A DNA stretch of 64,000 nt, taken from Escherichia coli phage AZ21. The stretch lies in the sequence record LC788708.1; one strand, written 5' to 3'. Within the stretch, counting starts at the first letter, position 1, and every line of letters begins with the position of its first letter. Below are positions 2,310 through 32,980 of the stretch, piece after piece. Made by a program: the position numbers and the translations under genes. The notes under the pieces are model-generated. The model had not been told where the DNA came from and made no database searches. It saw nothing but the letters and a program-made list of their open reading frames with translations.

Positions 2310-3011
2310 ATGAAAGTAAAACCATTTGGTATGCTAGATATTGAATCTCTAGGAACTCCAGGAGATTGTGGTACTACCCATATCGCAATGCCTTCATTCG
2401 CTTTTGTGGCTATGCATGGAATTGATAAAGACCCTGATCTAGTATTTGTTACTTTAGATGTACAAGATCAACTTAATTCTGGTGCCAAAGTTACAGCATC
2501 TACTCTAGCATTCTGGATGGATCAGGCTAAACATAGCCCGTCTGCTATCCACATTATGGAAGCTATGAATGAGCGTAATCCAAAACTGGTTGCCTTCCAA
2601 AATGGTAAACATCATTGCACTAATAAACTTGGCTCTAACCATGCTGCCTTCTCTATGGCTCAAAATATTATGGAGTTGGCTCTAGGCGAAAATGCTTTGT
2701 ATTATGGCAATGGCCCAGAGTTTGATATGACTATCTACTCTGCAAACACTTTCCATGCTGGAACCAATGAAGAAATAGTTCCGTGGAAATTCTGGAACTT
2801 GGGTAATGTTAGATCTCTTCGTAATCTCTGGATGCAAACTGGCTATAGTTATAAAGCTCTAGAAACCGAAGGTATTAGCTGGGCAATAGCTAAAATGGAG
2901 AAGATGGACACCATTCGTTATGGGATCTATCCGGTTAAGCACGACCCAGCATTCGATGCCCTAGTTGAGAGCTATTGTGTTGCAGCTATGATCGAAAAAA
3001 TGAAAATTTGA
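2310..3011 (+). CDS. DEDDh-type 3'-5' exonuclease-like protein
   Basis: 233 aa; MLDIESLG (Exo I D-x-E), YGNGPEFDMTIY (Exo II), KHDPAFDALVESY (Exo III H-x4-D) by eye. Confidence 0.55.
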   Translation: MKVKPFGMLDIESLGTPGDCGTTHIAMPSFAFVAMHGIDKDPDLVFVTLDVQDQLNSGAKVTASTLAFWMDQAKHSPSAIHIMEAMNERNPKLVAFQNGKHHCTNKLGSNHAAFSMAQNIMELALGENALYYGNGPEFDMTIYSANTFHAGTNEEIVPWKFWNLGNVRSLRNLWMQTGYSYKALETEGISWAIAKMEKMDTIRYGIYPVKHDPAFDALVESYCVAAMIEKMKI

Positions 3012-3081: not shown

Positions 3082-3264
3082 ATGCCAGTATCTAAAAATG
3101 TTCGTAAAAATGGTAAGAAAGCTACTCGTAATCTGGGTATCCGTCGTATGGCTGAACGTCAATCAGGTATCCAGAAAATCTTTGATCTGCTAAATCGTGC
3201 TAATCCTAAAATTGATAACAGTAACGATACTGTTCTGCGCACCCTGCTGGCAATTGGTCTGTAA
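3082..3264 (+). CDS. hypothetical basic protein
   Basis: 60 aa ORF behind T5-type promoter and RBS AAAGGAAAACAAATATG. Confidence 0.4.
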   Translation: MPVSKNVRKNGKKATRNLGIRRMAERQSGIQKIFDLLNRANPKIDNSNDTVLRTLLAIGL

Positions 3265-3317
3265 TAGACCAAATTTAAACAAATTCAAATCTCAAACTTC
3301 ATATAAGGAAGCAAATA

Positions 3318-3956
3318 ATGACTACTCGTATCTCTAAAACTCGCGCTCTGGCAACTATCAAATCTCTGGAAGCTAAAATCCGTAAAGCTACTGAACAACA
3401 GCTTCTGATCGCTGTTGGTGAAGGTAAGGATAAAAACCAGGTTGTAGTTGGCGCTGCAATCGAAGTAGATGCCCTGTCTACTCGTATTAAAACTGATTTC
3501 CAATCTCTGCTGGATATGATGTCTCAGCGTGATCGTATTAAATCTGCTCTGATTAAGAGCAATGCAGAAACAATCGTTGAGATTGGTTCTCGTAAGATGA
3601 CTGTTGCGGAAGCAATTGAAGCTAAGCGTTCTATGGAGCTTAAAGCTCAGCTGCTGGCTAACATGCGTAAGCAGTTCCATGCCGCTACGATTAAGTTTAA
3701 TACGCAGAAAGCACAGTTTGATGCTAAATATGAGCGTTTGCAGGATAGCATGGCTACCCGCGATAAGAAAACTTCCGAAGATGAAGTTAAAATGCAGCTC
3801 AATCTGCTGGAACTCAAGAATACTCCATTCTTGATTGATCCGCTGGAACTGGAGAAGCTGATTAAGCAGCATGACGAGGAATACCAGGACTTTGCAACAA
3901 ATGTTGACTTTGTTCTATCCGAGTCTAACGCCTCTACCTTCATTGAAGTAGAGTAA
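3318..3956 (+). CDS. hypothetical protein (coiled-coil)
   Basis: 212 aa ORF, RBS AAGGAAGCAAATAATG. Confidence 0.5.
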   Translation: MTTRISKTRALATIKSLEAKIRKATEQQLLIAVGEGKDKNQVVVGAAIEVDALSTRIKTDFQSLLDMMSQRDRIKSALIKSNAETIVEIGSRKMTVAEAIEAKRSMELKAQLLANMRKQFHAATIKFNTQKAQFDAKYERLQDSMATRDKKTSEDEVKMQLNLLELKNTPFLIDPLELEKLIKQHDEEYQDFATNVDFVLSESNASTFIEVE

Positions 3957-4339
3957 TAATTTAAAAGCTAGTAAATCGGTAGACGAAAGCCCAAGCATCT
4001 TACCTCGCAGCAGCGGTTGAAATACGAGGTTAAATAAGACCGCTGACCATACTATAAAGTATAATCTATTGGAGATTATGTTTATTACACCAGCCTCTTA
4101 AGCTGACACGTAAGAACAAAGCGTCGTTGATATTACCGACACAACTTCAAAGATCAACATTTAAGTATGAAAGCTGAAAAGTTTAAAGAACTCAAACTTC
4201 TAAACTTCTAAAGCTAAAAGATGCAAAGTATTCGTTGATGATTCAAACCCTAGATCAAAGGTACATGGCTCATAAGATATGGCCTGTGGCGCCTCTAGGC
4301 TGTTTATCGGTTTACTAGTTTCACAATTTAAAAATGTAT

Positions 4340-4368
4340 TTGCTAATTTACTAAGTTATCTGTATAAT
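4340..4368 (+). promoter_or_regulatory. T5-type early sigma70 promoter
   Basis: TTGCTA-17-TATAAT. Confidence 0.65.
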
Positions 4369-4398
4369 ATATTTTTAAATTGATGAAACGAGGCTATT

Positions 4399-4716
4399 AT
4401 GACTTTTCATATTTTGATTGATGATGTGCGTAATCTTCACGGAATGGACATTATCATTCGAACCCCAGAAGCCGCTGTAGAGTTTCTGAATAAAACTGAT
4501 ACCACAGGCCACTTCGTTTATATGGATAATGACTTGGCTGTAGATGGTATGGAAGGTTATCAAATTCTTCGTTTACTCTTAGAATTTGGGCAGAGACCAA
4601 AGAAAGTGGTACTAGTAACCTCAAACCCAGTAGCTAAGCAAAATATGCGTAATGATTTGCTTGACTTAGGGTATAAAGAAAATCCCAATCGTGTTGAATA
4701 TGATTGGCAGGAGTAA
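4399..4716 (+). CDS. hypothetical protein, CheY-like receiver-domain pattern
   Basis: 105 aa; HILIDDV (acidic pair), FVYMDNDL (Asp), KVVLVTSN (Thr/Ser) spaced like receiver-domain strands; tentative. Confidence 0.4.
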   Translation: MTFHILIDDVRNLHGMDIIIRTPEAAVEFLNKTDTTGHFVYMDNDLAVDGMEGYQILRLLLEFGQRPKKVVLVTSNPVAKQNMRNDLLDLGYKENPNRVEYDWQE

Positions 4717-4721
4717 AAAGA

Positions 4722-5171
4722 ATGAAGGCAGCTTTGCTTTTAGTAGCTGCCCTTACCTTCAGCTTTAGTAGTCAGGCATCGCACGATGCAAAAGAAATAG
4801 ATTGCATTGCTAAAAATATCTATTTCGAGAGTCGCGGTGAGGGCATAAAGGGAATGACGGCGGTTGCACATGTTACTAAAAACCGTGTAAACTCCGGTAA
4901 ATTCCCAGATTCCTACTGTAAAGTAGTATATCAGTCTAACCAGTTCTCTTGGGTATCTAAGAGACCAAAAGTTGATAAAACTGATGAGGCTTGGCAAACC
5001 GCTAAGAATTTAGCTAGAGTGATATACTACGTTGATTTACCACAAGATCCTACGTATGGAGCACTATACTTCCATAGTGGTAAAGATAAACCTTACTGGA
5101 CAAAGAAGTTTAAGAAAACAACTAAGATTAAGGGACATACGTTTTATAAACCTGTTGTCACTAAAACTTAA
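4722..5171 (+). CDS. secreted SleB-like cell-wall hydrolase (Hydrolase_2-like)
   Basis: N-terminal signal peptide MKAALLLVAALTFSFSSQA; IAKNIYFESRGEG...AHVTKNRV...YCKVVYQSNQFSW motif; AGGAG RBS; start moved from TTG 4704 to ATG 4722. Confidence 0.6.
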   Translation: MKAALLLVAALTFSFSSQASHDAKEIDCIAKNIYFESRGEGIKGMTAVAHVTKNRVNSGKFPDSYCKVVYQSNQFSWVSKRPKVDKTDEAWQTAKNLARVIYYVDLPQDPTYGALYFHSGKDKPYWTKKFKKTTKIKGHTFYKPVVTKT

Positions 5172-5179
5172 AAATTTAC

Positions 5180-5208
5180 TTGCTTAGCTACTTAAATTTC
5201 TGTATAAT
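5180..5208 (+). promoter_or_regulatory. T5-type early sigma70 promoter
   Basis: TTGCTT-17-TATAAT, leader TTTCATAAATTAATGAGAGG. Confidence 0.65.
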
Positions 5209-5239
5209 ACTTTCATAAATTAATGAGAGGAAGCGAAAT

Positions 5240-5410
5240 ATGAAATCAGTTGTAATTATTGGTGTTAACACTCGCGGTATTCGTACTACGAAAACTGTTA
5301 AAACTTCTAACGTTGCTGAAATCACTACGAACCCTAAAAAGTTTGATTTCGCCAAAGTCTCAGCAGTTATGACAGAACAATCTTTTAACCAAGCATTGGG
5401 GATGAAATAA
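5240..5410 (+). CDS. small hypothetical protein (56 aa)
   Basis: Short ORF directly behind promoter and GAGAGGAAGCGAAATATG RBS; stop overlaps next start (TAATG). Confidence 0.3.
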   Translation: MKSVVIIGVNTRGIRTTKTVKTSNVAEITTNPKKFDFAKVSAVMTEQSFNQALGMK

Positions 5411-5844
5411 TGGGTGAAAATATTCTAATGACCCTTCGTGGACTGCTTAGTCTAGCACGTACCCACGGTGATAAGGAGAGGGCACTTAATCTTCAGACCA
5501 TGATTGGTGATCTGCAACGTATTGATAAAGACATTGTTACTCGAACCGAGTTCGTAGCCTATCTGAAAGCTCAGATTAAGGCTCTAGAAAATGCAAAACA
5601 ACGCGCTATTAAAGTTGGTACGGAAGTTCCTACTGATGTAGACTATGAGCAACTGCTTTATTCCATGCTGCAAGAGTATCAGCCAAGTCAACTGACTGAA
5701 GTTCAGATTCGTGAGTATTTTGCAGAACTGGTTAAATTAAACCCAGGTATTACCAAAGCTCTATTAATGAAAACTATTAAGGCAGAATTTCCTGGACGTT
5801 ATGACGGTAAAACAACTGCTTTGATTGCTAGTGAATTTTTCTAA
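5410..5844 (+). CDS. hypothetical protein
   Basis: 144 aa ORF translationally coupled to upstream small ORF. Confidence 0.5.
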   Translation: MGENILMTLRGLLSLARTHGDKERALNLQTMIGDLQRIDKDIVTRTEFVAYLKAQIKALENAKQRAIKVGTEVPTDVDYEQLLYSMLQEYQPSQLTEVQIREYFAELVKLNPGITKALLMKTIKAEFPGRYDGKTTALIASEFF

Positions 5845-5852
5845 AAATTCAC

Positions 5853-5881
5853 TTGCTAAATGCTTATAAATTCTATATAAT
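5853..5881 (+). promoter_or_regulatory. T5-type promoter driving tRNA island
   Basis: TTGCTA-17-TATAAT about 80 nt upstream of first tRNA-like element. Confidence 0.6.
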
Positions 5882-5958
5882 ATATTCATAAATTAGATGA
5901 TAATTAGGCATCTAATTTATAAATAGTGGGGTGTGGAAATCACTTATGTAGTAACACT

Positions 5959-6030
5959 GCCGTCCTAGTATAATTGGTATTATCAAGCCGTAACTGGTGG
6001 AAGATGTAGGTTCGAATCCTACGGTCGGTA
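5959..6030 (+). tRNA. tRNA-like element (anticodon arm not resolved)
   Basis: GTAGG-TTCGAAT-CCTAC T-arm and 7-bp acceptor pairing (one mismatch) 70 nt downstream of promoter; no clean anticodon stem found by eye. Confidence 0.35.
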
Positions 6031-6532
6031 AGAACTGGATAACTGATGCTTTTAACGTAAAAGCTTCCGAGGTTAGTTGCGCACTGCCTAAACCACGCGG
6101 TAGTTGGTTCCAGACTAACCAACCAGTCTGCTGAATAGTTTTATTACGATTTAACTATGTCCAGGCTAAAGAAGAACTTTAGAAGGTATTCTAGGATAGT
6201 GAAGTTCTTTCTCCACATCGGAGTAGTTTTTCAAGCTATCCACAAAGTGGGAAATGCTGACATGAGAGATGTCACTAATGGTGCACAATAGCACAGGTAA
6301 TTCGCGATAATTCCTGTTGAGTAGCAGCAAAAGGCGGGAAGTCATGACCCCAAGCCTAACCGAGTCCTCAATATACCGCAGGGCATAACCACTAAGTCAC
6401 CCTGACTTAAACTGGAAAATAATAGACGTTACTGTATTTTGTCTTGAAATACTTAATGAGTGAGACTTATGACTCTCCCGGTATCGTCTGTATTTTTAAG
6501 AGTTTTTACGAGAGTTCTTAAAAATACTTAAA

Positions 6533-6607
6533 CGGGGTGTAGTCTAAGGGAGAGGCAGGAGTCTTCTAAATTCCTTTATGCAGGTTCGAATCCTGTCACC
6601 TCGGCCA
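6533..6607 (+). tRNA. tRNA-Arg (anticodon UCU)
   Basis: Acceptor CGGGGTG/CACCTCG, D-stem GTCT/AGGC, anticodon stem GGAGT/ATTCC with loop CTTCTAA, T-arm GCAGG-TTCGAAT-CCTGT, encoded CCA. Confidence 0.75.
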
Positions 6608-6641
6608 ATTTTATTAACTGTAACTAAAACAAAGGAAACAT

Positions 6642-7589
6642 ATGTTTAATACTAAAAATATGAAAGAATTGACTTCTGAGCAGAAAGTAATTCGTACTAT
6701 TAAACGTTGGGGTATTGGTGCTGTAGTTGGTTTAGCAGGTTTAATCCTAGCTTTTAATTCGTATACCATTGTTTCTGATGGTACGGTTAAAACCCAAACA
6801 TTCCTGGGTAAAGTAGACCCTAATCCAGTATTACCTGGTTTCCATCTTGTAAACCCGTTTGCATCTTTCGATACTTTTAGTACGAAAGATATTTCTATGA
6901 AACTGGATAAACTTCAGGTTCCTAGCCAGGATAAGTTTAAGTCTACAGTTGACATTACCGTTATGTTGCAGTTTGATGGTGCTAAAGCTCCTATTAACCG
7001 TGTTAACGCAGGTACTCAGGATCAAGCTCTGAACAAGTACGTTGAAGAGAAGATGCTGTCTACGATTCGTGAGTTTGGTAAGTCTGTACCAAAAGCACAA
7101 GATCTGTTCGACGCTAAGATTCAGGCTCAACTGCAAACCGCTATTCAGCAAGAAGTAGAAGAGTATGCGCGTCCTTATGGCTACACCGTTAAGCAAGTAT
7201 TCCTTCAGGATATTACTCTGCCACCGGTAATCATGGAACAGGTACAAAACACCAAAGTTCGTGAAGAACAAGTTAACGCTGCAAAAGCTGAACTAGCTCG
7301 TGTTGAACAAGAAGCACAGCAGAAAGTTAAGCAAGCTGAGGCTGATCGTTCTGCTCGTGAAAATATGGCAGTAGCTAACGAACGTGACGCAGATGCTAAA
7401 CTGTATGCGGCTAAGAAAGAAGCTGAAGCTAACACCGCTCTGCAGCGTACCATCACTCCAGAGATGATTCGCTGGAAACAGCTGGAAGTTGATATGAAAC
7501 GCGCTGAAAAATATCAGGGTGGCGTTCCTCAGACTGTTGTAGGTACTGGTTATGATGGCCAGATGATTATGGATATGCGTAATAAGTAA
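6642..7589 (+). CDS. SPFH/band-7 (prohibitin/HflC-like) membrane protein
   Basis: 315 aa; N-terminal TM helix then TQTFLGKV...PGFHLVNPF...TVDITVM SPFH-like core and long Ala/Glu/Lys coiled coil; followed by strong terminator. Confidence 0.65.
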   Translation: MFNTKNMKELTSEQKVIRTIKRWGIGAVVGLAGLILAFNSYTIVSDGTVKTQTFLGKVDPNPVLPGFHLVNPFASFDTFSTKDISMKLDKLQVPSQDKFKSTVDITVMLQFDGAKAPINRVNAGTQDQALNKYVEEKMLSTIREFGKSVPKAQDLFDAKIQAQLQTAIQQEVEEYARPYGYTVKQVFLQDITLPPVIMEQVQNTKVREEQVNAAKAELARVEQEAQQKVKQAEADRSARENMAVANERDADAKLYAAKKEAEANTALQRTITPEMIRWKQLEVDMKRAEKYQGGVPQTVVGTGYDGQMIMDMRNK

Positions 7590-7612
7590 TAGTTACACGT
7601 AATCTTCGAAAC

Positions 7613-7647
7613 AAGCCCGCGTTTCCTCCGAGAGCGCGGGCTTTTCT
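7613..7647 (+). terminator. rho-independent terminator
   Basis: AAGCCCGCG-loop-CGCGGGCTT followed by TTTTCT. Confidence 0.75.
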
Positions 7648-7792
7648 GTATTTAAGGCAAAAGAAAAGCCCATAAGTTATTCAACTAAGGTCTTTAGTAC
7701 TTAATTCTTTAGAATCATATACTATTATTGCAGCAACAACGTGCTACCACTAAATGCCCTACGATTTTCCTCTAAAAAGTTAAAAAATTCGA

Positions 7793-7821
7793 TTGCTTGA
7801 ATGCTAAATTCTCTGTATAAT
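7793..7821 (+). promoter_or_regulatory. T5-type early sigma70 promoter
   Basis: TTGCTT-17-TATAAT, leader TTTATAAATTTGAGAGAGG. Confidence 0.65.
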
Positions 7822-7851
7822 ATATTTATAAATTTGAGAGAGGAATCAAAT

Positions 7852-8148
7852 ATGAAACGCATTGTACTTGCATTGACTCTAGTATCTACTTCTGTATTTG
7901 CTGCTCCACAACAGGAACTTTGTCAAGTTCAAGTTTGTAATAAGCTAGAACGATTTACTTTGGATATTTGGTCACACATTAAAGATAATATGGGTGAGCA
8001 ATGTTTTGATATTGTTCTGCCAAAAGAACAAGCTGTTCCTGGTGCTGTTCTCAGCTCAGAATCACGTTGGTGGCAAGGTTCTTCTATCAATCCAACTAAG
8101 AAGTCAGTGACACGTATCAAACAAGTGTATCAGTGCAGTGTTCAGTAA
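7852..8148 (+). CDS. small secreted protein
   Basis: Signal peptide MKRIVLALTLVSTSVFAAP; RBS GAGAGAGGAATCAAATATG; upstream in-frame extension overlaps promoter so start set at 7852. Confidence 0.5.
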   Translation: MKRIVLALTLVSTSVFAAPQQELCQVQVCNKLERFTLDIWSHIKDNMGEQCFDIVLPKEQAVPGAVLSSESRWWQGSSINPTKKSVTRIKQVYQCSVQ

Positions 8149-8156
8149 AATTTCAC

Positions 8157-8185
8157 TTGCTTAATGCCGAAATTTTCTATATAAT
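8157..8185 (+). promoter_or_regulatory. T5-type early sigma70 promoter
   Basis: TTGCTT-17-TATAAT. Confidence 0.65.
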
Positions 8186-8216
8186 ATATTCTATAAATTA
8201 TAGATAGGAGTCATAT

Positions 8217-8735
8217 ATGACTGTTGACGAGTTAAAACAACATCTTTTATCTAGGGGCTTTGATAGTGATAAGTATCACTGTTGGCTCTCTCCACATGGA
8301 TGGTTAACAGTTCCACTGTATGATTTCTCTGGCATGTTACGTGGATATCAAACATATAACCCTAGTGCAGCTAAAGGTCATGGAAAATGTCCTTCTGAAG
8401 CTAAATATTTTACGCATTCTTCTACTCAATGTCTATGGGGTTTAGAAACTCTTACAGGTAATGAAGACCTAGTATTAGTTGCAGAATCTGTATTTAAAGC
8501 TGTGGCACTACACAACGCGGGATATCCCGCACTAGCAATGCTAGGATCTTCCCCTAGCAAAGCACTGCTAAAGCAGCTAAAATTACAACCTTTTAAAGTA
8601 GTAGCCGTAGGCGATAATGATTCTGCTGGTGAGAAGTTTGCTAAAAAACTAAATGGGTTTACTTCCCTCATGGATTTAGATGAAATGAATACAGAAAACT
8701 TGAAAAATTTTCTTGCCATGAAGCTAAATTTCTAA
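8217..8735 (+). CDS. Toprim-domain (DnaG-like) protein
   Basis: 172 aa; VLVAESVFKAVALHNAGYPALAMLGS...VVAVGDNDSAGEKFAKKL resembles primase Toprim E...DxD motif; no zinc-ribbon or polymerase domain. Confidence 0.45.
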   Translation: MTVDELKQHLLSRGFDSDKYHCWLSPHGWLTVPLYDFSGMLRGYQTYNPSAAKGHGKCPSEAKYFTHSSTQCLWGLETLTGNEDLVLVAESVFKAVALHNAGYPALAMLGSSPSKALLKQLKLQPFKVVAVGDNDSAGEKFAKKLNGFTSLMDLDEMNTENLKNFLAMKLNF

Positions 8736-8741
8736 TATAAT
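8713..8741 (+). promoter_or_regulatory. promoter embedded in 3' end of Toprim gene, driving tRNA-Ser/Met
   Basis: TTGCCA-17-TATAAT then TTCATAAATTTGG immediately before tRNA-Ser. Confidence 0.55.
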
Positions 8742-8755
8742 ATATTCATAAATTT

Positions 8756-8849
8756 GGAAGATTAACCCTAAAGGTAAGGGAGCTGTTTGCTAAACAGCCA
8801 GTAGCTGTGGAGACACGGTGTGCCAGTTCGAATCTGGCATCTTCCTCCA
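8756..8849 (+). tRNA. tRNA-Ser (anticodon GCU), type II
   Basis: Acceptor GGAAGAT/ATCTTCC, anticodon stem GCTGT/ACAGC with loop TTGCTAA, long variable arm CTGTG-GAGA-CACGG, T-arm GCCAG-TTCGAAT-CTGGC, CCA. Confidence 0.75.
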
Positions 8850-8854
8850 AATTT

Positions 8855-8932
8855 GGTTCTCAAGCTCATTTGGTATGAGCCGTCGCCTCATAAGCGAAAG
8901 GTAGGCAGGTTCGAATCCTCCGGGAGCCACCA
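8855..8932 (+). tRNA. tRNA-Met/Ile-type (anticodon CAU)
   Basis: Acceptor GGTTCTC/GGGAGCC (G-U pairs), D-stem GCTC/GAGC, anticodon loop CTCATAA, T-loop TTCGAAT, CCA. Confidence 0.65.
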
Positions 8933-8951
8933 AATTAAATAAGGACAACTA

Positions 8952-9140
8952 ATGGAATTATTCATAGTTTCTATTAAATTTGCACAAGATAGAGAACATT
9001 CGGACGAGTTTAAACAAGGGTACAGACTAGTAAAGGCTACATCTGAACTACATGCTATGGACAAAGTAGTAGACTATATGTATAAAGTAGAAGACGTTTA
9101 CTACGTCAATGCTTTAGAAGCCTCAAAAGTAATTAACTAG
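8952..9140 (+). CDS. hypothetical protein
   Basis: 62 aa ORF immediately after tRNA pair, RBS AAGGACAACTAATG. Confidence 0.4.
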   Translation: MELFIVSIKFAQDREHSDEFKQGYRLVKATSELHAMDKVVDYMYKVEDVYYVNALEASKVIN

Positions 9141-9148
9141 GAGACTAT

Positions 9149-9334
9149 ATGTCCAAATTTCAAGAACTCAAGCAAGAGCTAGAAGAGTGTGCCTGCCCAA
9201 AATGCTTCGGAGTAGGTGAGTGGAACGATGCTGAACCCGGTGATACACGGTATAATACATACGTTTGTACATATTGTAATGGTTCTGGTATTAATCCTGA
9301 ATGTGGTATTTCTCTAGACATTGAGCGAGGTTAA
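9149..9334 (+). CDS. small zinc-finger protein (DnaJ-type CxxCxGxG repeats)
   Basis: 61 aa; CPKCFGVGE and CTYCNGSGI motifs; RBS AGGAGACTATATG. Confidence 0.45.
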   Translation: MSKFQELKQELEECACPKCFGVGEWNDAEPGDTRYNTYVCTYCNGSGINPECGISLDIERG

Positions 9335-9674
9335 GATGGATATTTTTACTACTCCGGCAATAAACCTTTTAGGTGTTGGCTTGTTCCAAGCTACGGTGTA
9401 TCGTACTGATGATTCTACTGATGTGGTAACGTTCATCGTACCTGAGTTCTTCCTAGAAAAGTTCTTTGAAGAGTTTGAGCAGTTCCGTGAAGAACACAAT
9501 GCTCATTCCGATATGGAAGATCTAGCAGCTATGTTCCCTGCGGTTTACGGCTATATCTTTGAAGGTAATGGCCTAGATCTTAATAAATCTGAACTCGTTG
9601 AACTTAACTGGGGCATCAATTTTGAAGTTGGCTCTCCATTCCCTCGATATTTCCAGGGTTTAGAGATTCGCTAA
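9321..9674 (+). CDS. hypothetical acidic protein
   Basis: 117 aa ORF overlapping stop of upstream gene. Confidence 0.45.
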   Translation: MSEVKMDIFTTPAINLLGVGLFQATVYRTDDSTDVVTFIVPEFFLEKFFEEFEQFREEHNAHSDMEDLAAMFPAVYGYIFEGNGLDLNKSELVELNWGINFEVGSPFPRYFQGLEIR

Positions 9675-9682
9675 GATTACAT

Positions 9683-9759
9683 GGGGGTGTAATCGAATTG
9701 GCATAGGTACTGGACTTAAAATTCAGGTTTTGTGGGTTCGAATCCCACCACCCCTACCA
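9683..9759 (+). tRNA. tRNA, anticodon read as UAA (Leu-type) on short-variable-arm scaffold
   Basis: Acceptor GGGGGTG/CACCCCT, anticodon stem CTGGA/TTCAG with loop CTTAAAA, T-arm GTGGG-TTCGAAT-CCCAC, CCA; isotype uncertain. Confidence 0.6.
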
Positions 9760-9774
9760 AATTAAGGAAATAAA

Positions 9775-9897
9775 ATGAAAGCTATTAAGAAAGCACTGCG
9801 TAAATTTATGTATTGTCGTTTTCATAGCATCAAGGCTTCAACTAATGGTACTACTTACGATCGCTATGATCCTAAGTTTGGCTTACATTCTAAATAA
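9775..9897 (+). CDS. small hypothetical protein (40 aa)
   Basis: Short ORF with RBS AAGGAAATAAAATG right after tRNA. Confidence 0.3.
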   Translation: MKAIKKALRKFMYCRFHSIKASTNGTTYDRYDPKFGLHSK

Positions 9898-9910
9898 CTG
9901 GAGAAAACAA

Positions 9911-10117
9911 ATGGCTAATCCTGAAATTACGGCACAACGCTTTATGCTGAAAGGAATTATTGCTGAAGCAGGCATGACAGAAGAAGTTGCAGATTTTCAA
10001 AAGCAATTCCTCAATATTCTCACTCAAGCCAAAGAGCTAGGAGAGAAAGAACATGGCGCGGCTATTATGGCAATCACATTGGTTGGGCTTGATCTGGCTG
10101 AAGAATCAGGAGTTTAA
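9911..10117 (+). CDS. hypothetical protein
   Basis: 68 aa from ATG with RBS GGAGAAAACAAATG; in-frame upstream extension lacks RBS. Confidence 0.4.
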   Translation: MANPEITAQRFMLKGIIAEAGMTEEVADFQKQFLNILTQAKELGEKEHGAAIMAITLVGLDLAEESGV

Positions 10118-10206
10118 CTCCTCCAAGCAGAAATTTTAAAAATGTACTTGCTTTTTGCTTAAGATTTCTGCTATAATAGTTATATAAGTTGATGAGAGGA
10201 ATCAGA

Positions 10207-10482
10207 ATGTTAAAACGTTTTGCAGCAACTGGTATTGAAAGCTCAGTATGTAAATCCTGGGGTGGTTGGGAAGGTGAGATCGAGTGGCTTCAGTTCTACA
10301 ATGTAGAACTTCTTCCAGAGATCAAAGCTCAATGTATTGAGGCTGGTATGGCTCCTGATGCTACGGCTGATGTTGAAATCAGCATGAATAAGCTAGAGGG
10401 TCGAGTAGTCACTGTTACTGATGAAGGTGAAGAGGTATTCGAACTTCCATTCACTTTGAAAGTCACTCCTTCATTTGATTAA
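10207..10482 (+). CDS. hypothetical protein
   Basis: 92 aa; promoter and RBS GAGAGGAATCAGAATG. Confidence 0.45.
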   Translation: MLKRFAATGIESSVCKSWGGWEGEIEWLQFYNVELLPEIKAQCIEAGMAPDATADVEISMNKLEGRVVTVTDEGEEVFELPFTLKVTPSFD

Positions 10483-10518
10483 CTGATACAGCACTGAGCA
10501 AGTTCTTTAAAATTTGAC

Positions 10519-10547
10519 TTGCTCAGTGCCTTAAAACTTGATATAAT
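10519..10547 (+). promoter_or_regulatory. promoter upstream of tRNA-Tyr
   Basis: TTGCTC-17-TATAAT. Confidence 0.55.
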
Positions 10548-10612
10548 ATTTATCTAATTTGGAAACATATTTAAAAGTGTTTAAATGAGAATTTTTGAAT
10601 ACTTCTAAATAT

Positions 10613-10700
10613 GGGCGTTTATTCCGTAAGTGGTAGCGGAGGGGATTGTAAATCCCTGGTCATTGCGACTCGAGTGGTTCGACTCCATTAACGCCCACCA
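10613..10700 (+). tRNA. tRNA-Tyr (anticodon GUA), type II
   Basis: Acceptor GGGCGTT/AACGCCC, anticodon stem GGGGA/TCCCT with loop TTGTAAA, long variable arm, T-loop TTCGACT, CCA. Confidence 0.7.
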
Positions 10701-10717
10701 AATTAAAGGTAAAGGAT

Positions 10718-10909
10718 ATGTATATTGATCGGATAATTCAAGAAGCTGCAAATAGGGGTATTATACAGTTGGGTTCACCCGCTGATATAAATAAAGATCT
10801 AATATTAGAAAGCCTCACATTTGGTACAGCTAACTTTGGTCGCGATAGTAATCGTCGATATAGCTTGAAGTTATCTGCACTATCTTTTATCAAGTATAAC
10901 AAATTATAG
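10718..10909 (+). CDS. hypothetical protein
   Basis: 63 aa ORF between two tRNAs, RBS AAAGGTAAAGGATATG. Confidence 0.3.
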   Translation: MYIDRIIQEAANRGIIQLGSPADINKDLILESLTFGTANFGRDSNRRYSLKLSALSFIKYNKL

Positions 10910-10983
10910 TTAGTTGGCAGAGTGGTTATGCACCTCCTTCATACGGAGCGACTACAGTGGTTCAACTCCACTACTAACTACCA
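10908..10983 (+). tRNA. tRNA-Met/Ile-type (anticodon CAU)
   Basis: Acceptor AGTTAGT/ACTAACT, anticodon stem CTCC/GGAG with loop TTCATAC, T-arm AGTGG-TTCAACT-CCACT, CCA. Confidence 0.65.
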
Positions 10984-11166
10984 AAGATAAGATCAGGCCT
11001 TTGTGCCAGATCTCTGTGTTTATTAAACTGAATGGGACTATCAATCCACAAGCCGGACTACGAGCGATTATCGGGTATTCACTTAATAAACAGCCTGCCT
11101 CCCAGTTTTTATCTTGCTTCTGGGTTAACAAAAAGCTGAGCCAAATTCTAACATCAGGGAGATCTA

Positions 11167-27903: not shown

Positions 27904-28641
27904 TCGGATTCGCACATGCTCTAGGGCAGTTTTTCATCTACTATAAATATCCTAGGCCGGTTTTCCTATACAGGGCGGTTATGGGGAGGGCGGTTATTTC
28001 TAGACAATAAAATTTACTCTTGTCAGTCCAGAAATTACTGTCGGATTTGCACATTGTGTTTCTAGAAATTTATGGTCGGATTTGCACAATTGCCTAAGTT
28101 TTTAGGAACATATAATCTCCTGAAAATGGCAGCATTATTTCGGGCCGAAGGCCCATGATTGCCTGAGTTTTTTTAGAGACACAGAAATTTTCACTTGTCA
28201 AGCTATTTTGCCCCATTTTGCTAATAAAATTTTACTTTATCTCCCCTAATCTCAAATTAACCCAAATCTTCTCAACTCTTCTCCAAAATCCCCGCAAATC
28301 AGGTGCTCCGCACCAAACATGCGCCCCTCCCGTAGTTCCCCCAAGTTTCTCTCGATCTCTCAACTTCTCCCCAAACTCATACAATCACACACCCTCCAAT
28401 CGAAGTCACAAAAATCTTGTCGGATTCGCACAAATAAACCCATGTCGGATTTGCACATATTCTAGTTAATTCCACAGGATTGATGCGCAGCATCGGATTG
28501 CTGGAGTTTTTGGGAGAATTCATTGTCGGATTCGCACACTATAAAAATTTTTCGGGTCGGATTTGCACACTACCAAAAATTGTCGGATTCGCACATACAC
28601 GCCCACGCGTAATCCATGGGGGCAAATGTCGGATTTGCACA
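27904..28641 (+). repeat. array of 9 direct copies of GTCGGAT(T/C)(T/C)GCACA
   Basis: Copies at about 27904, 28040, 28075, 28419, 28444, 28525, 28557, 28582, 28628, same orientation, irregular spacing, non-coding. Confidence 0.8.
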
Positions 28642-28647
28642 AAAGCG

Positions 28648-28663
28648 CAGGGCAATTGCCCTG
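28648..28663. repeat. perfect 16-bp palindrome CAGGGCAATTGCCCTG
   Basis: Exact reverse-complement symmetry. Confidence 0.8.
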
Positions 28664-28705
28664 CTTGCCTGAATGCGAATGATAATGAGAATCATTTGCA
28701 TTTAA

Positions 28706-28858
28706 AAAGCGGAATGAGAATGATAATAATTCGCATTTAAGAATGGAAGTGAGAATTATTCAGGAAGTGAAACGATTCTCATTTAAAAAGTGAAACGATT
28801 CTCATTTAGAAAGTGAAACGCGAATGATAATGATTCGTATTTAAGAATGGAAGTGAGA
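28706..28858 (+). repeat. two about 42-bp direct repeats flanking a 23-bp tandem repeat
   Basis: ATGATAAT.ATTCG.ATTTAAGAATGGAAGTGAGAA at about 28706 and 28817; GTGAAACGATTCTCATTTA(A/G)AAA x2.5 at 28767-28822. Confidence 0.75.
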
Positions 28859-28874
28859 AACACTATTATTTAAG

Positions 28875-28964
28875 TTATCCACAGACTTATCAACAGCACG
28901 ATTTGACTTGACAGAATCCTAGCCATTTTGAGGCGTTATCAACAGACTTATCAACAGCTTATCC
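28875..28964. promoter_or_regulatory. DnaA-box cluster
   Basis: TTATCCACA at 28875-28883 plus three TTATCAACA variants within 90 bp. Confidence 0.55.
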
Positions 28965-28984
28965 TACTGTATAAATATACAGTA
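28965..28984. promoter_or_regulatory. LexA (SOS) box, near-consensus
   Basis: TACTGTATAAATATACAGTA, i.e. CTGT-N8(AT-rich)-ACAG, one spacer difference from the E. coli consensus. Confidence 0.6.
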
Positions 28985-29177
28985 TTCCTATGCAGTGAAT
29001 AATTCTAATATACAGCTAAAACGCTCTCAAACGCATTCTAACGCGTTTAATTTTGGTGGGGATACTAAAACAAGGGCAAAATTGGAGGAGGCTTGAAAAT
29101 TAGTTAGCTCGCTAATGATCACACACGGCGACACGTAACACCCTAACCATTAGCAGGCTAACCATCGCGGGCGTGGT

Positions 29178-29200
29178 CAAATGAGAATGATTCTCATTTG
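29178..29200. repeat. perfect inverted repeat CAAATGAGAAT-G-ATTCTCATTTG
   Basis: 11-bp arms around a single central base. Confidence 0.8.
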
Positions 29201-29350
29201 TGGATTGGGGGCGCTTCCTGATAGTTGCGCCCCGTGATTATTATAGTAGGGGGCAACCGTTACGCTTTGCCCACTCCCGCCACTCATCTTGGTGCCTAGA
29301 CTTGCGACGGCGTACTAAAAACCGCTTGTACCAGTGATTAAACCATCGTT

Positions 29351-29554
29351 TCATAAATCCTCCTCCGGTAGTCGATGCGTGATCTTTTCCTCCTCCCCAT
29401 AGGAATCCACCAAATACTGATAATAACCATCGTGATCATAAATCACTTTATCATATTCCCCACGCTCGACCGCTTGCCGATTTTCCAACGTATCAGGCAC
29501 AAAGAAAGTATCAACGGTAACAGTAGTTTTAGTTACAACAATTTTATCACTCAT
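29351..29554 (-). CDS. hypothetical small acidic protein
   Basis: 67 aa; last gene of tightly packed minus-strand operon; start overlaps upstream tiny ORF. Confidence 0.45.
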   Translation of the reverse strand: MSDKIVVTKTTVTVDTFFVPDTLENRQAVERGEYDKVIYDHDGYYQYLVDSYGEEEKITHRLPEEDL

Positions 29555-29680
29555 AATGCCATCGCCCCTAGAATGAGAATGATTATCAATATCATTGTGA
29601 AGCCATTACCAAATCGTAAACGCTGGGAATGTTTCCCAGCGGTATTATTAGACTTATGGCTTTGTGTTTTTCGCCACCAG

Positions 29681-29881
29681 CTATTCACGGTAGACGCTCC
29701 ATCCGTCTAGCTTCCATTCTTCCCCCTTGCGAATATTGAAAAACCAATCATTAAAATTGTAACCATCTTCTGACATGATCACGCCGTTTTCTTTCATGTA
29801 CAAAAATTCATCACTAGTAAAATATTGATTACTAACTTTAAAACCTTGTTTCATTTTTTCTAGTGCTTCATCTTTAGTCAT
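29681..29881 (-). CDS. hypothetical small acidic protein
   Basis: 66 aa; ATGA-type overlap with upstream gene. Confidence 0.45.
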   Translation of the reverse strand: MTKDEALEKMKQGFKVSNQYFTSDEFLYMKENGVIMSEDGYNFNDWFFNIRKGEEWKLDGWSVYRE

Positions 29882-30222
29882 TGCGCCACCTTTCGAAACG
29901 CTGTTTCAATACTATCCGCAGTGGATTGAATATATGCGCCTTTGAGTATCAGCCGCTCGGTGCATATCTTGCGAAAAATATTAATAAAATCGTCCTCATT
30001 TTCTGCGATTAATGCCTCACCCATAACCTGAACGTCGCAAGATGCAAAGGTCAAAAATTGAAACGCTAGTTCACGGGCAACGACCGCATTGATTTTATAA
30101 TGCGCCTTGCCTTCATAGATATTAATAACGCCCTTATAAGCTGGCGAAAGCTGATTTAAGTAGTTTGCTAATAATGCCGGACGGCAATTAGCAACAAAAC
30201 GATTGCCCTCATAAATAACCAT
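29878..30222 (-). CDS. hypothetical protein
   Basis: 114 aa, minus-strand operon member. Confidence 0.5.
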   Translation of the reverse strand: MVIYEGNRFVANCRPALLANYLNQLSPAYKGVINIYEGKAHYKINAVVARELAFQFLTFASCDVQVMGEALIAENEDDFINIFRKICTERLILKGAYIQSTADSIETAFRKVAQ

Positions 30223-30349
30223 TTGATAGTCTCCCGATTAGATAGCCAGATAATAACATAAAGATCCCCAATAAAAGAGGATCATTCTTAAATAAGGTGG
30301 CGGTAAAACCGCCAACCATTGCAAGGAGAATAACAATAATGCTTTTCAT
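30209..30349 (-). CDS. small membrane protein (46 aa)
   Basis: MKSIIVILLAMVGGFTATLF hydrophobic ORF; ATG overlaps stop of upstream gene (ATGA) and its stop overlaps next start. Confidence 0.3.
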   Translation of the reverse strand: MKSIIVILLAMVGGFTATLFKNDPLLLGIFMLLSGYLIGRLSNGYL

Positions 30350-30558
30350 AGTACCCCACGAAACGCAGCGTAAAAGGTGGCAAAGTGTTTAACTGTTTCA
30401 GCAATCACGTTGCCGCGCTTATCAAATTTCTTTTCTGTAACACGAAAGGCATTTTTATTACGTGCTACATATTCGATTTTACAATCTTCCCGCTCGAACG
30501 TGTTAACATCCACCAGCTTAAAGCCTTTCGAACGTGCAAGAGAAACGTTGCGGATCAT
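30346..30558 (-). CDS. hypothetical basic protein
   Basis: 70 aa ORF in minus operon. Confidence 0.45.
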   Translation of the reverse strand: MIRNVSLARSKGFKLVDVNTFEREDCKIEYVARNKNAFRVTEKKFDKRGNVIAETVKHFATFYAAFRGVL

Positions 30559-30560
30559 TT

Positions 30561-30743
30561 TTATTCCCCTTTACTAGTCATGCAGCCCAGCAGATAAGAA
30601 AATACAGCGATGCCAGCACCAATAGTAACCATTGGTTTTATATTTACTAAACCGCAATAGGAATCCTGAATACCATAAGCGGTGGCGAAAAGAGTCAAAA
30701 TAGCGCCCAAGATACCCGCTAAAATAGCTCGAAAAATAACCAT
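30561..30743 (-). CDS. small membrane protein
   Basis: 60 aa with two hydrophobic helices; preceded by GGGGCG-loop-CGCCCC hairpin. Confidence 0.45.
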   Translation of the reverse strand: MVIFRAILAGILGAILTLFATAYGIQDSYCGLVNIKPMVTIGAGIAVFSYLLGCMTSKGE

Positions 30744-30792
30744 TTGTAATACTCCTCTAGTTAGTGGGGCGAAAGTAACGCCCCGTTATTAA

Positions 30793-31023
30793 TTACATTA
30801 AAATAATTTTTGCCGCTTGTTTTTTGGTACAGTGTTCCGCTTTCAGGGTGTCCAGCAAAAAGCCCGCCGTTTGCTGATCGATTTTATCGGCATTATATAG
30901 TTCTTGGATGGTGTTATAAGTTTTAGCAATGCCGTATTCTTGTACCATTTCTTGAATAATCCAGCGATTTGATACCCAGCCTTTACCAGTGAAAAGAGCG
31001 TCAGAAGAAGAGTAAGCAACCAT
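30793..31023 (-). CDS. hypothetical protein
   Basis: 76 aa from ATG with RBS GGAGGCTTAAAATG (minus strand); longer track ORF lacks RBS. Confidence 0.45.
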   Translation of the reverse strand: MVAYSSSDALFTGKGWVSNRWIIQEMVQEYGIAKTYNTIQELYNADKIDQQTAGFLLDTLKAEHCTKKQAAKIILM

Positions 31024-31086
31024 TTTAAGCCTCCAAATTTTTGGGAAAATTTTCAACCGTCCTCAAACGGTGTAAAGGCATTATAA

Positions 31087-31115
31087 CAAAAAAGGCCGCC
31101 ATAAAAGGCGACCTT
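31087..31115 (-). terminator. rho-independent terminator (minus strand)
   Basis: AGGTCGCC-loop-GGCGGCCT hairpin followed by TTTTTT on minus strand, right after the stop of 31130-31624. Confidence 0.5.
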
Positions 31116-31129
31116 TACAAAACTTTACA

Positions 31130-31624
31130 TTAAACTACTTGTAAGGATTCAATATTGAAACATCGTTTCAGTTCGTCATGCAAAACGGCATATTCATCCC
31201 ATCGGGTACTATCAGGAATATAAACAAGCTGTTTTAATCGGTTTGCATATATTACCGCTTTGTTATCAATTATCTCGACGCCACCATATTTAATAATTAA
31301 TTTCATGACGGAATTAATAGGATCGCCGCCGTTTACATATGCGCCGGATTTACTTAATTGATAATGATAAAGGCTTGCATATACGTTTTCATTTTCATAC
31401 CATTCGCCAGTCTCTTCGTCTTCATAGCCATCGCTACCAAAACGAGAAGCATTATCAACAGCCATTTCATGAGCAAAAGCGTCCAGATCCGTACCAGCAG
31501 GAACAAAATATTCCTCGGTATTCCCTTCCCCGCAATAGCCAGTATGACAATCGACTAAAATGATCATATCATGTTTAGCCTTGCTCACTTCCCCTAGCGA
31601 GAAGCCGTATTTTTCTTCTAACAT
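31130..31624 (-). CDS. hypothetical acidic protein
   Basis: 164 aa from ATG with RBS GGAGAC; acidic run DGYEDEETGEWYENENVY. Confidence 0.5.
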   Translation of the reverse strand: MLEEKYGFSLGEVSKAKHDMIILVDCHTGYCGEGNTEEYFVPAGTDLDAFAHEMAVDNASRFGSDGYEDEETGEWYENENVYASLYHYQLSKSGAYVNGGDPINSVMKLIIKYGGVEIIDNKAVIYANRLKQLVYIPDSTRWDEYAVLHDELKRCFNIESLQVV

Positions 31625-31688
31625 AATTAGTCTCCTATTAATTAACAAGGAAATAGTAAAGCGGGGAAATAATCCCCGCTAGATATTA

Positions 31689-31922
31689 TTACTCGTTTTC
31701 GGTGTTAGTGGTAAAAGTAGAGATATCGATACCTTTTACCATTTCATCGATCATCTCAGCGATGTTAAAACTTTGCACCATTTCTAACATTGCCGCTTCC
31801 ATAGCCGCCCCTGCTACCGCTTTCGCTTTCTGATTAGTCGGGGCGTACTGGTCAACCGCTACACTCAGCAGGTTAGCGATCACTACACGACCAATCGGCG
31901 TATCAATATAGCCTTTGATCAT
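31689..31922 (-). CDS. hypothetical protein, possibly C-terminal part of a frameshifted gene
   Basis: 77 aa ORF overlapping end of 31903-32694 by 20 nt; reachable by +1 shift at an A7 run. Confidence 0.4.
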   Translation of the reverse strand: MIKGYIDTPIGRVVIANLLSVAVDQYAPTNQKAKAVAGAAMEAAMLEMVQSFNIAEMIDEMVKGIDISTFTTNTENE

Positions 31923-32694: not shown

Positions 32695-32960
32695 TTTATT
32701 TTGTCTCCCTCGTTAATCGGTGAGTGAATGATAAGGGTAATTTTCTAGCATAGGCAAATATTATTTTACTTTTTTATTTTCCTTGCCTAGCGTCTAATTT
32801 TATGCTAACCGCGCAGCGGTGCAATAAAGAGCAAACCACGGCGAAGCCACCAGCCCGACGCATTGAGGCTTTACTTTAATATTACCTTACAGCGTTTAGC
32901 TCGTTAGAATGCGTTTTGGGCCACTTAAAATTGATTGCAGTTGTTAACACTACCTTTCTA

Positions 32961-32980
32961 CCCTGTATATTTATACAGTG
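32961..32980. promoter_or_regulatory. LexA (SOS) box
   Basis: CCCTGTATATTTATACAGTG with perfect CTGT-N8-ACAG core, about 270 bp upstream of the first minus-strand gene. Confidence 0.55.

What the first reader, a model, noticed from the sequence alone, without database searches (positions are those of the whole stretch)
4399..4716. Stand-alone receiver-domain-like protein
The 105-aa product shows the acidic pair, phospho-acceptor Asp and Thr/Ser spacing of a CheY-like receiver domain, without any output domain. A phage-encoded orphan receiver could act as a phosphate sink or decoy for host two-component signalling. The call rests on pattern only.
Basis: inference. Interest (0 to 1): 0.45.

Follow-up and report, generated by a model that had tools for sequence, protein, structure and literature searches.

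The report
Phage T5 cREC receiver-like small protein
The gene is real and its protein has a trimmed CheY-like receiver fold, but it belongs to the already described, untested phage "cREC" family, which is predicted to act on phosphate esters of RNA ends or nucleotides rather than on host two-component signalling.

Summary
The ORF at 4399-4716 (+) is a real early gene of a T5-like phage. The window is 100% identical to E. coli phage AZ23, and the gene is the ortholog of T5.084. It has its own sigma-70-type promoter and a ribosome-binding site, and it is under purifying selection.

The protein is not a canonical receiver:
- It scores 12.5 bits on PF00072 (cut-off 30.2).
- It lacks helices alpha1 and alpha5.
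- It lacks the conserved Lys.

It is a clear member of Pfam PF20274 cREC_REC (56.8 bits, cut-off 27). Aravind's group defined this family in 2021-22 as a divergent receiver never linked to histidine kinases and predicted to resolve cyclic phosphates. No experiments exist. The family adds invariant D45 (a DxD motif), N76, R11, D17 and R21.

The two-component decoy idea is unsupported. The most likely function is a small Asp-based phosphoesterase for RNA/tRNA ends or nucleotide signals. The family is already known and already annotated as such in some records, so interest is low to moderate.

The parts
4340..4368 (+). Sigma-70-type promoter-like site (TTGCTA, 17 nt, TATAAT; 10 of 12) in front of the gene
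   Evidence: It lies at the same position as the promoter annotated upstream of T5.084 in AY543070.1 (43067-43141). It is a consensus match only; function was not tested here.
4390..4393 (+). Shine-Dalgarno-like GAGG, 5 nt before the ATG
   Evidence: Read directly from the sequence.
4399..4716 (+). CDS of 105 aa: stand-alone cREC (cyclic-phosphate processing receiver) domain protein, ortholog of phage T5 T5.084 (AAS77130.1)
4420..4425 (+). Codons for D8-D9, the acidic pair at the end of beta1 (equivalent to CheY D12/D13; metal-binding in receivers)
   Evidence: Invariant in 107 of 107 relatives. Mapping by hhalign.
4525..4533 (+). Codons for D43-N44-D45, the DxD motif at the end of beta3. D43 equals CheY D57 (phospho-acceptor or nucleophile position). 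D45 equals CheY N59 (position D+2).
   Evidence: Both Asp are invariant; the middle residue is H in 68 and N in 33 of 107. Mapping.
4618..4629 (+). Codons for T74-S75-N76-P77 at the end of beta4. T74 equals CheY T87. N76 equals position T+2.
   Evidence: T/S in 107/107, N in 106/107, P in 96/107. Mapping.

Best explanation
This is the T5.084 ortholog of a T5-like phage. It is an early gene with its own strong promoter and encodes a 105-aa, single-domain member of the cREC family (PF20274).

Shown:
- The fold is a cut-down receiver (flavodoxin-like). It has five parallel strands plus a C-terminal hairpin and three helices; receiver helices alpha1 and alpha5 are missing.
- At the C-terminal ends of the strands lies an invariant acidic cluster: D8 and D9 (metal-binding positions in receivers), D43 (phospho-Asp position), D45 two residues later, T74 and N76.
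- R11, D17 and R21 are conserved family-specifically, and no Lys is conserved.

Inferred:
- The protein is an enzyme, not a switch. D43 probably attacks a phosphate ester with Mg2+ held by D8/D9, forming an aspartyl-phosphate intermediate. D45 would serve as general acid/base, as in DxDxT (HAD) acylphosphatases. The phosphatase domain of T4 Pnkp is such an enzyme and heals RNA 2',3'-cyclic phosphate ends this way.
- The most likely substrates are 2',3'-cyclic phosphate ends of cleaved RNA/tRNA, or cyclic-phosphate ADP-ribose or nucleotide derivatives. This is what the family's describers proposed.
- In the infected cell it would help the phage keep its tRNA and RNA pool usable, or remove a nucleotide product or signal made during host defence.
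- It is unlikely to take part in host two-component signalling.
For: - Family membership: (56.8 bits against a cut-off of 27), and (all relatives carry PF20274; UniRef and NCBI names read 'cyclic-phosphate processing receiver domain-containing protein').
- Active-site residues.
- Real, expressed, constrained gene.
- Published prediction for the family, and its absence from kinase systems: PMC7824862, PMC9503650.
- Precedent for Asp-x-Asp chemistry on RNA>p: PMC3592404.
- Context consistent with an RNA/tRNA theme:
  - In the window, an Rv2179c-like 3'-5' exoribonuclease gene lies 1.4 kb upstream, a weak YqeY-like gene lies downstream, and the tRNA region starts 1.2 kb downstream.
  - cREC genes lie inside or within 6 kb of tRNA clusters in 7 of about 27 independent lineages, and within 600 nt in three of them.
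  - An RNA ligase gene lies 2.4 kb from one homolog.
  - Two bacterial assemblies carry a cREC-DUF2779-WYL operon, matching the published WYL link.
  - T5-like phages also carry Sir2-like genes elsewhere in the genome.
Against: - No member of the family has been tested experimentally (PMC9503650 says so; two searches found nothing newer, and nothing on T5.084).
- In this phage the gene is not next to any RNA ligase, polynucleotide kinase, Nudix, Macro or sirtuin gene. None was found among the 40 window ORFs scanned, and the Sir2-like genes are 14-16 kb away in another transcription direction. T5-like phages have no known RNA ligase, so a heal-and-seal pathway would need host RtcB.
- Most sampled neighbourhoods hold only small unknown phage genes.
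- The tRNA proximity is modest (about 26%). tRNA clusters sit in accessory-gene regions anyway, and I could not compute a proper null.
- The family lacks the Lys that both receivers and HAD enzymes use to stabilise the phosphoryl group. That an Arg replaces it is only a guess.
- I could not inspect the model's coordinates.
- The query has Ala where 103 of 107 relatives have Gly (position 47).
Confidence: 0.5

Rival explanations
1. The protein is an orphan CheY-like receiver that takes phosphoryl groups from host histidine kinases or Hpt proteins (or from acetyl phosphate). It would act as a phosphate sink or decoy that rewires host two-component signalling during infection.
For: The receiver fold and four of the five receiver active-site residues (DD, D, T) are present and invariant. 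An aromatic residue (Y92) sits where the receiver 'Y-T coupling' residue would be by eye (inference). Single-domain receivers acting as sinks are known in bacteria (general knowledge).
Against: - It fails PF00072 (12.5 against 30.2 bits).
- It has no alpha1, the main kinase-docking element, and no alpha5.
- It has no conserved Lys.
- The family is spread over phages of very different hosts and some archaeal and bacterial genomes, always without kinases (PMC7824862, PMC9503650). A decoy for a specific host kinase would be expected to track that host's receivers.
- The extra invariant residues D45, N76, R11, D17 and R21 have no role in receiver signalling.
Confidence: 0.05
2. The protein is a non-catalytic binder. 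The conserved acidic and Arg pocket would bind a phosphorylated small molecule (an immune signalling nucleotide such as cyclic ADPR isomers or cyclic oligonucleotides) or a host protein. It would work as a sponge or inhibitor, like other roughly 100-aa phage anti-defence proteins.
For: It is small, stand-alone and early-expressed, and it sits among accessory genes in many unrelated phages. It lacks the catalytic Lys. It is linked to WYL ligand-sensor genes in bacteria (PMC7824862).
Against: Absolute invariance of four Asp plus Thr in the exact geometry used for phosphoryl chemistry in receivers is more typical of catalysis than of binding. No oligomer or sponge-like features were examined. There is no experimental support.
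Confidence: 0.2
3. The protein is an Asp-based phosphomonoesterase or phosphotransferase acting on free nucleotides or metabolites (nucleotide-pool or NAD/ADPr metabolism) rather than on RNA ends. It would fit the nucleotide-metabolism block of the T5 early region.
For: The gene lies in the early block that holds rnh, thy, frd and nrdAB upstream and dnk downstream. In phage My1 it sits right after rnh. It has a DxD motif like HAD phosphatases (PMC3592404). Nudix fusions are reported for the family (PMC9503650). A 5'-nucleotidase gene lies in the bacterial locus L036.
Against: There is no conserved partner of nucleotide metabolism across the sampled loci. T5 already has dedicated dmp and dnk enzymes. 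A 105-aa domain without a cap would have little small-molecule specificity (inference).
Confidence: 0.15
4. The protein is a functional partner of the downstream, translationally close-coupled SleB-like cell-wall hydrolase (4722-5171), for example as its regulator or chaperone.
For: There is a 5-nt gap between the stop at 4716 and the next ATG at 4722. The two genes share the same promoter unit, and the pair is kept in hundreds of Tequintavirus genomes.
Against: - In the more distant demerecvirus My1 the cREC gene is separated from the hydrolase gene by five genes.
- No Hydrolase_2 neighbour appears in any other lineage sampled.
- The hydrolase has a signal peptide and is exported, while cREC has none (translation; inference).
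Confidence: 0.03

Closest known systems
cREC / cRec domain, Pfam PF20274 'Cyclic-phosphate processing Receiver domain' (Iyer, Anantharaman, Krishnan, Burroughs, Aravind; Viruses 2021, PMC7824862; Viruses 2022, PMC9503650)
   Same: It is a full-length match well above threshold. It carries the same invariant DD, DxD and T-x-N-P residues. It has the same stand-alone, roughly 100-aa architecture and the same mostly phage distribution. No histidine kinase is nearby.
   Different: The T5-like copy is not next to the NAD/ADPr or RNA-ligase genes that were used to infer the family's function. It has N instead of H between the two Asp, and Ala instead of the near-invariant Gly47.
CheY-like response-regulator receiver domains, Pfam PF00072
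   Same: It shares the flavodoxin-like parallel sheet, and these domains are the best structural matches. The acidic pair, central Asp, Thr and the Gly after beta3 align.
   Different: It is below the Pfam threshold. It has no alpha1 or alpha5 and ends in a beta-hairpin. It has no conserved Lys. It has invariant Asp at D+2 and Asn at T+2. It is never paired with kinases or output domains.
DxDxT (HAD-type) acylphosphatases, e.g. the 3'-phosphatase domain of T4 polynucleotide kinase-phosphatase (PMC3592404)
   Same: This is a 'works like' comparison only. Both have Asp-x-Asp at the end of a central strand, an acidic metal-binding pair, and a Ser/Thr. The T4 enzyme removes RNA 2',3'-cyclic phosphates through an Asp-phosphate intermediate, which is the activity predicted for cREC. 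It is also a phage enzyme that counters tRNA cleavage.
   Different: No sequence or fold-search hit to HAD proteins was obtained here. The motif is on beta3, not beta1. There is no cap and no motif III Lys. The resemblance is an inference, not a test.
2H phosphoesterases (E. coli ThpR/LigT, PMC4201822; phage 2H proteins)
   Same: It is a proposed functional analogue. Both would resolve cyclic phosphates on RNA ends or ADPr>p, and both are frequent in tRNA-bearing phages (PMC9503650).
   Different: The fold and catalytic residues are unrelated (two His-x-Thr motifs against an Asp cluster).

Membership tests
cREC (PF20274) | Match to the family profile above the curated threshold over the whole domain | tested here: met
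   56.8 bits against a cut-off of 27, E = 3.8e-15, profile positions 2-86 of 88. All close and distant relatives carry PF20274.
cREC (PF20274) | Conserved catalytic aspartates shared with receivers (acidic pair plus central Asp) on a receiver-like topology | tested here: met
   D8, D9, D43 and D45 are invariant and T/S74 is at 100%. Receiver fold.
cREC (PF20274) | Never associated with histidine kinases | tested here: met
   No HisKA or HATPase_c was found in 13 Pfam-annotated neighbourhoods or in 40 window ORFs.
cREC (PF20274) | Gene-neighbourhood or fusion link to NAD/ADPr-processing, RNA-ligase/RNA-repair or WYL genes | tested here: inconclusive
   There is no such link next to the gene in this window. 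Sir2-like genes are 14-16 kb away in T5-like genomes. Links were seen in other members: RNA ligase in L013, and WYL in L036/L037. The window context is an exoribonuclease gene, a YqeY-like gene and tRNAs.
cREC (PF20274) | Cyclic-phosphate phosphoesterase activity | not testable with these tools
   This is a prediction only, for the whole family (PMC9503650: 'remain experimentally uncharacterized').
Response-regulator receiver (PF00072, CheY-like) | Match to PF00072 above the gathering score | tested here: not met
   12.5 bits against 30.2. CheY chains reach only E 0.3-1.
Response-regulator receiver (PF00072, CheY-like) | (beta-alpha)5 structure with five helices | tested here: not met
Response-regulator receiver (PF00072, CheY-like) | Five conserved active-site residues DD, D, T/S, K (PMC12632262) | tested here: not met
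   DD, D and T are present. No conserved Lys exists: position 93 is K in 22 of 107, and position 95 (aligned by eye to K109) is K in 15 of 107.
Response-regulator receiver (PF00072, CheY-like) | Phosphotransfer from a cognate histidine kinase or Hpt | not testable with these tools
   This needs biochemistry. No kinase gene lies in the window or in sampled neighbourhoods.
HAD / DxDxT acylphosphatase superfamily | Sequence or fold membership (motifs I-IV on a Rossmannoid core with squiggle and flap) | tested here: not met

The most novel reading that the evidence does not exclude
cREC proteins would be an unrecognised class of phage counter-defence enzyme. They would be a receiver scaffold converted into a minimal aspartyl-phosphate phosphoesterase. 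It would be kept near phage tRNA clusters to heal 2',3'-cyclic phosphate ends left by host anticodon nucleases, handing the ends to host RtcB, or to destroy cyclic-phosphate or ADPr-derived immune signals. T5.084 would be a tractable model for this in a classic phage.
Probability: 0.25. Interest if true: 0.6.

Novelty: already known. Interest (0 to 1): 0.25.

Why it matters
The gene belongs to one of the classic model phages and is conserved in more than 450 sequenced T5-like genomes. Most records still call it a 'hypothetical protein', and its family has never been assayed. If the predicted chemistry holds, it would show that the receiver fold, known almost only as a phosphorylation switch, was turned into an enzyme in phages. 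It would also add a piece to the phage toolkit against tRNA- or nucleotide-based host defences. As a scan finding, though, it adds little. The fold, the family name and the functional prediction are already published and already appear in UniProt and NCBI annotation.

Tried and rejected
- NCBIfam gave no match.
- A single-sequence PDB search gave only chance hits (designed beta-trefoils, CheY at E about 0.3-1).
- A profile search of PDB sequences put TAL effector Hax3 first. No single stretch passed; it is a repeat-summing artefact of 'SNxGGK'-like repeats and was rejected. No cREC structure is solved.
- The search for related loci with the 107-sequence alignment failed because no stretch was conserved enough. 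A 14-sequence subset worked but returned only 19 loci.
- The afdb50 fold library was unavailable.
- Longer relatives were scanned for informative fusions. Only an HNH homing-endonuclease fusion (P0033) and unannotated extensions turned up. P0098 is not a cREC protein.
- I looked for RNA ligase, Nudix, Macro, sirtuin and kinase genes among 40 window ORFs and found none.
- Functional coupling to the adjacent SleB-like hydrolase was considered and rejected, because the adjacency is lost in phage My1.
- tRNA proximity as proof of a tRNA-repair role was considered and kept only as a weak hint: 7 of about 27 lineages, with no proper null.
- Literature searches for T5.084 and for newer cREC work found nothing beyond the two Aravind-group papers.
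- The model's coordinates could not be read, so the positions of R11, R21 and R80 relative to D43 remain unverified.

Full report
**What is there**

The window comes from a T5-like phage (Tequintavirus). Bases 3300-5900 are 100% identical to E. coli phage AZ23 and about 98% identical to many Escherichia and Salmonella T5-like phages.

The flagged ORF, 4399-4716 on the + strand, is real. It has these features:
- It starts at an ATG preceded by GAGG.
- A TTGCTA-17-TATAAT promoter-like site lies at 4340-4368. The T5 reference genome annotates a promoter at the same place.
- It is the ortholog of T5.084 (AAS77130.1, 96% identical).
- tblastn finds it in 493 phage records. 452 of them cover at least 80% of the protein, and nearly all label it 'hypothetical protein'.
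- Against the T5 copy pN/pS is 0.09, so the reading frame is under purifying selection.

The acidic pair (D8-D9), the central Asp (D43) and the Thr/Ser (T74-S75) are present.
- In an alignment of 107 diverse relatives taken from an exhaustive HMMER search (232 hits at E <= 1e-3), D8, D9 and D43 are invariant and position 74 is always T or S.
- An AlphaFold2 model built on the alignment is very confident (pLDDT 95.6, pTM 0.88).

**Why it is not a canonical receiver**

- It scores 12.5 bits on PF00072 against a cut-off of 30.2.
- The model goes from beta1 through a loop straight to beta2. Helix alpha1, which receivers use to dock on histidine kinases, is missing, and hhalign shows the corresponding 8-residue gap.
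- Alpha5 is replaced by a short beta-hairpin.
- No Lys is conserved at the end of beta5. A recent review of receiver domains defines them by a (beta-alpha)5 fold and the five residues DD, D, T, K, and calls anything lacking one of these a pseudo-receiver (PMC12632262).

**What family it is**

The protein matches Pfam PF20274, cREC_REC ('Cyclic-phosphate processing Receiver domain'), over the whole domain at E = 3.8e-15 and 56.8 bits, against a cut-off of 27. It also matches PHROG 1479, of unknown function.
- The family was defined by Iyer, Anantharaman, Krishnan, Burroughs and Aravind.
- They predict that it resolves 2',3'-cyclic phosphates on RNA or cyclic ADPr phosphates. They state explicitly that it is experimentally uncharacterised (PMC7824862, PMC9503650).
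- UniRef, NCBI and at least one deposited T5-like genome already give the 94-99% identical orthologs that name.
- No solved structure of the family turned up by sequence.
- The nearest predicted viral structures are other cREC proteins from T4-like, jumbo and uncultured phages.

**Family-specific residues**

Beyond the receiver residues, the family has these conserved positions:

| Position | Conservation (of 107) | Note |
|---|---|---|
| D45 | invariant | two residues after D43; CheY N59, position D+2 |
| N76 | 106 | CheY E89, position T+2 |
| P77 | 96 | |
| R11 | 98 | |
| D17 | 98 | |
| R21 | 106 | |
| R/K80 | 84 | |
| Y/F/W92 | all 107 aromatic (Y 97, F 8, W 2) | |

- In receivers, D+2 and T+2 contact the attacking and leaving groups of the phosphoryl reactions (PMC12632262).
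- An Asp-x-Asp pair, an acidic metal-binding pair and a Ser/Thr make up the residue set of DxDxT (HAD) acylphosphatases.
- The HAD phosphatase domain of T4 Pnkp removes RNA 2',3'-cyclic phosphates through an Asp165-phosphate intermediate, with Asp167 as acid/base (PMC3592404).
- That is my basis for the proposed mechanism. It is an analogy, not a demonstrated relationship. No HAD protein appeared in any search, and I could not inspect the model's coordinates.

**Context in the window**

Gene order on the + strand:
1. RNase H (290-769).
2. DUF7022 (1205-1720).
3. An Rv2179c-like 3'-5' exoribonuclease (2310-3011).
4. Two unknown genes (3082-3264 and 3318-3956).
5. The promoter-like site (4340-4368).
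6. cREC (4399-4716).
7. A SleB-type cell-wall hydrolase with a signal peptide (4722-5171), 5 nt after the cREC stop codon.
8. DUF7616 (5240-5410).
9. A weak YqeY-like protein (5410-5844).
10. A second promoter-like site (5853-5881).
11. A tRNA-like element (5959-6030) and tRNA-Arg (6533), followed by the rest of a reduced tRNA region.

Other points:
- None of the 40 ORFs I scanned in the non-structural part of the window is a histidine kinase, RNA ligase, Nudix, Macro or sirtuin.
- T5-like genomes do carry Sir2-like genes, which the Aravind group ties to RNA repair. They lie 14-16 kb away, are transcribed the other way, and are outside this window.
- The adjacency to the hydrolase is only local synteny. 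In the more distant demerecvirus My1 the cREC gene follows rnh and is five genes away from the hydrolase gene.

**Context elsewhere**

I read about 27 independent neighbourhoods.
- Most are stretches of small unknown phage genes.
- Seven lineages have tRNA genes within 6 kb of the cREC gene:
  - the window (T5-like);
  - KVP40-like Vibrio phages;
  - L006;
  - L007;
  - the L018 group;
  - L020;
  - L029.
- In three of them a tRNA lies within 600 nt:
  - L007: tRNA-Lys about 200 nt upstream and tRNA-Leu 58 nt downstream.
  - L018 group: the gene is embedded in an 11-tRNA cluster.
  - L029: tRNA-Leu 35 nt upstream.
- One locus has an RNA ligase gene 2.4 kb away (L013).
- Two bacterial assemblies share a cREC-DUF2779-WYL operon. 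This independently reproduces the published WYL link.
- These observations fit an RNA/tRNA or nucleotide-signal theme, but they are not strong. tRNA clusters lie in accessory-gene regions anyway, and I had no proper null.

**Verdict**

The fold and the stand-alone architecture hold. The proposed role as a sink or decoy for host two-component signalling is not supported (my estimate is about 5%).
- The best explanation is membership of the cREC family (near certain) with a probable Asp-based phosphoesterase function on cyclic-phosphate RNA ends or nucleotide derivatives. I give the enzyme reading moderate confidence and the exact substrate low confidence.
- Rivals are a non-catalytic nucleotide or protein binder, and a small-molecule phosphatase of nucleotide or NAD metabolism.
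- The family, its name and its predicted role are already published and already appear in database annotation, so as a discovery this is already known.
- Its residual value is that T5.084 offers an easy experimental entry to an untested, widespread phage protein family.

Noticed in passing
window 5959-6030, 6533-6607 and 8756-10983; loci L006, L007, L009, L010, L018-L022, L020, L029: cREC genes lie in or next to phage tRNA clusters in 7 of about 27 independent lineages, and within 600 nt in three of them (L007, the L018 group, L029). tRNA-Leu(UAA) is the immediate neighbour in L007 and L029. This may reflect a tRNA-related role, or only the accessory-gene nature of tRNA regions.
   Followed up: partly
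window 5853-6610: A second strong promoter-like site (5853-5881) precedes a tRNA-like element at 5959-6030. Rfam scores it as tRNA (35.5 bits), ARAGORN does not call it, and one related record labels it 'tRNA-OTHER'. In T5 this stretch is annotated as the stable 'RNAX' of unknown function.
   Followed up: no
window 6500-11000, compared with AY543070.1 28000-41000 (L003): The window has only 6 ARAGORN tRNAs (plus one tRNA-like element), where T5 has about 24 tRNAs and several stable RNAs. The tRNA region of this phage is much shorter than in T5.
   Followed up: no
L036 4091-6869 and L037 1455-4233: Two bacterial assemblies share an apparent operon: cREC, then a 500-aa DUF2779 protein, then a WYL-domain protein, with DUF1643 downstream in both and a 5'-nucleotidase gene further downstream in L036. 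It is a cellular context for the family that may say more about function than the phage loci do.
   Followed up: no
window 2310-3011: The T5.087 ortholog is annotated 'putative metallopeptidase' or 'exonuclease' in public records. It matches the Rv2179c-like 3'-5' exoribonuclease domain (PF16473, E = 3.2e-8), so the peptidase label is probably wrong.
   Followed up: partly
window 3318-3956: The T5.085 ortholog (212 aa, coiled-coil-like, no Pfam hit) is labelled 'tail fiber protein' in several records although it sits in the early region. This is probably an annotation error that has been propagated.
   Followed up: no
P0033 (273 aa); phage records MZ501103.1 and OQ291035.1 (hits H49, H50): In some T5-like phages the cREC reading frame is fused to, or directly preceded by, an HNH_3 homing-endonuclease domain. 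One record calls it 'intein-containing'. It looks like a mobile-element insertion at this gene.
   Followed up: no
window 28000-40000: The GC skew flips at about 28-34 kb. The pre-early genes (the A1-sized ORF at 35367-37037) are followed directly by late structural genes on the + strand from about 39.9 kb. The deposited genome is therefore a permutation of the T5 map joined across the terminal repeat.
   Followed up: no
PV577657.1 54547-56045 (L033 7548-9046), outside the window: T5-like phages encode two adjacent Sir2-like ORFs, 14-16 kb from the cREC gene. The Aravind group links this sirtuin clade to RNA repair. Co-occurrence in the same genome without linkage may still be functionally relevant.
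   Followed up: no
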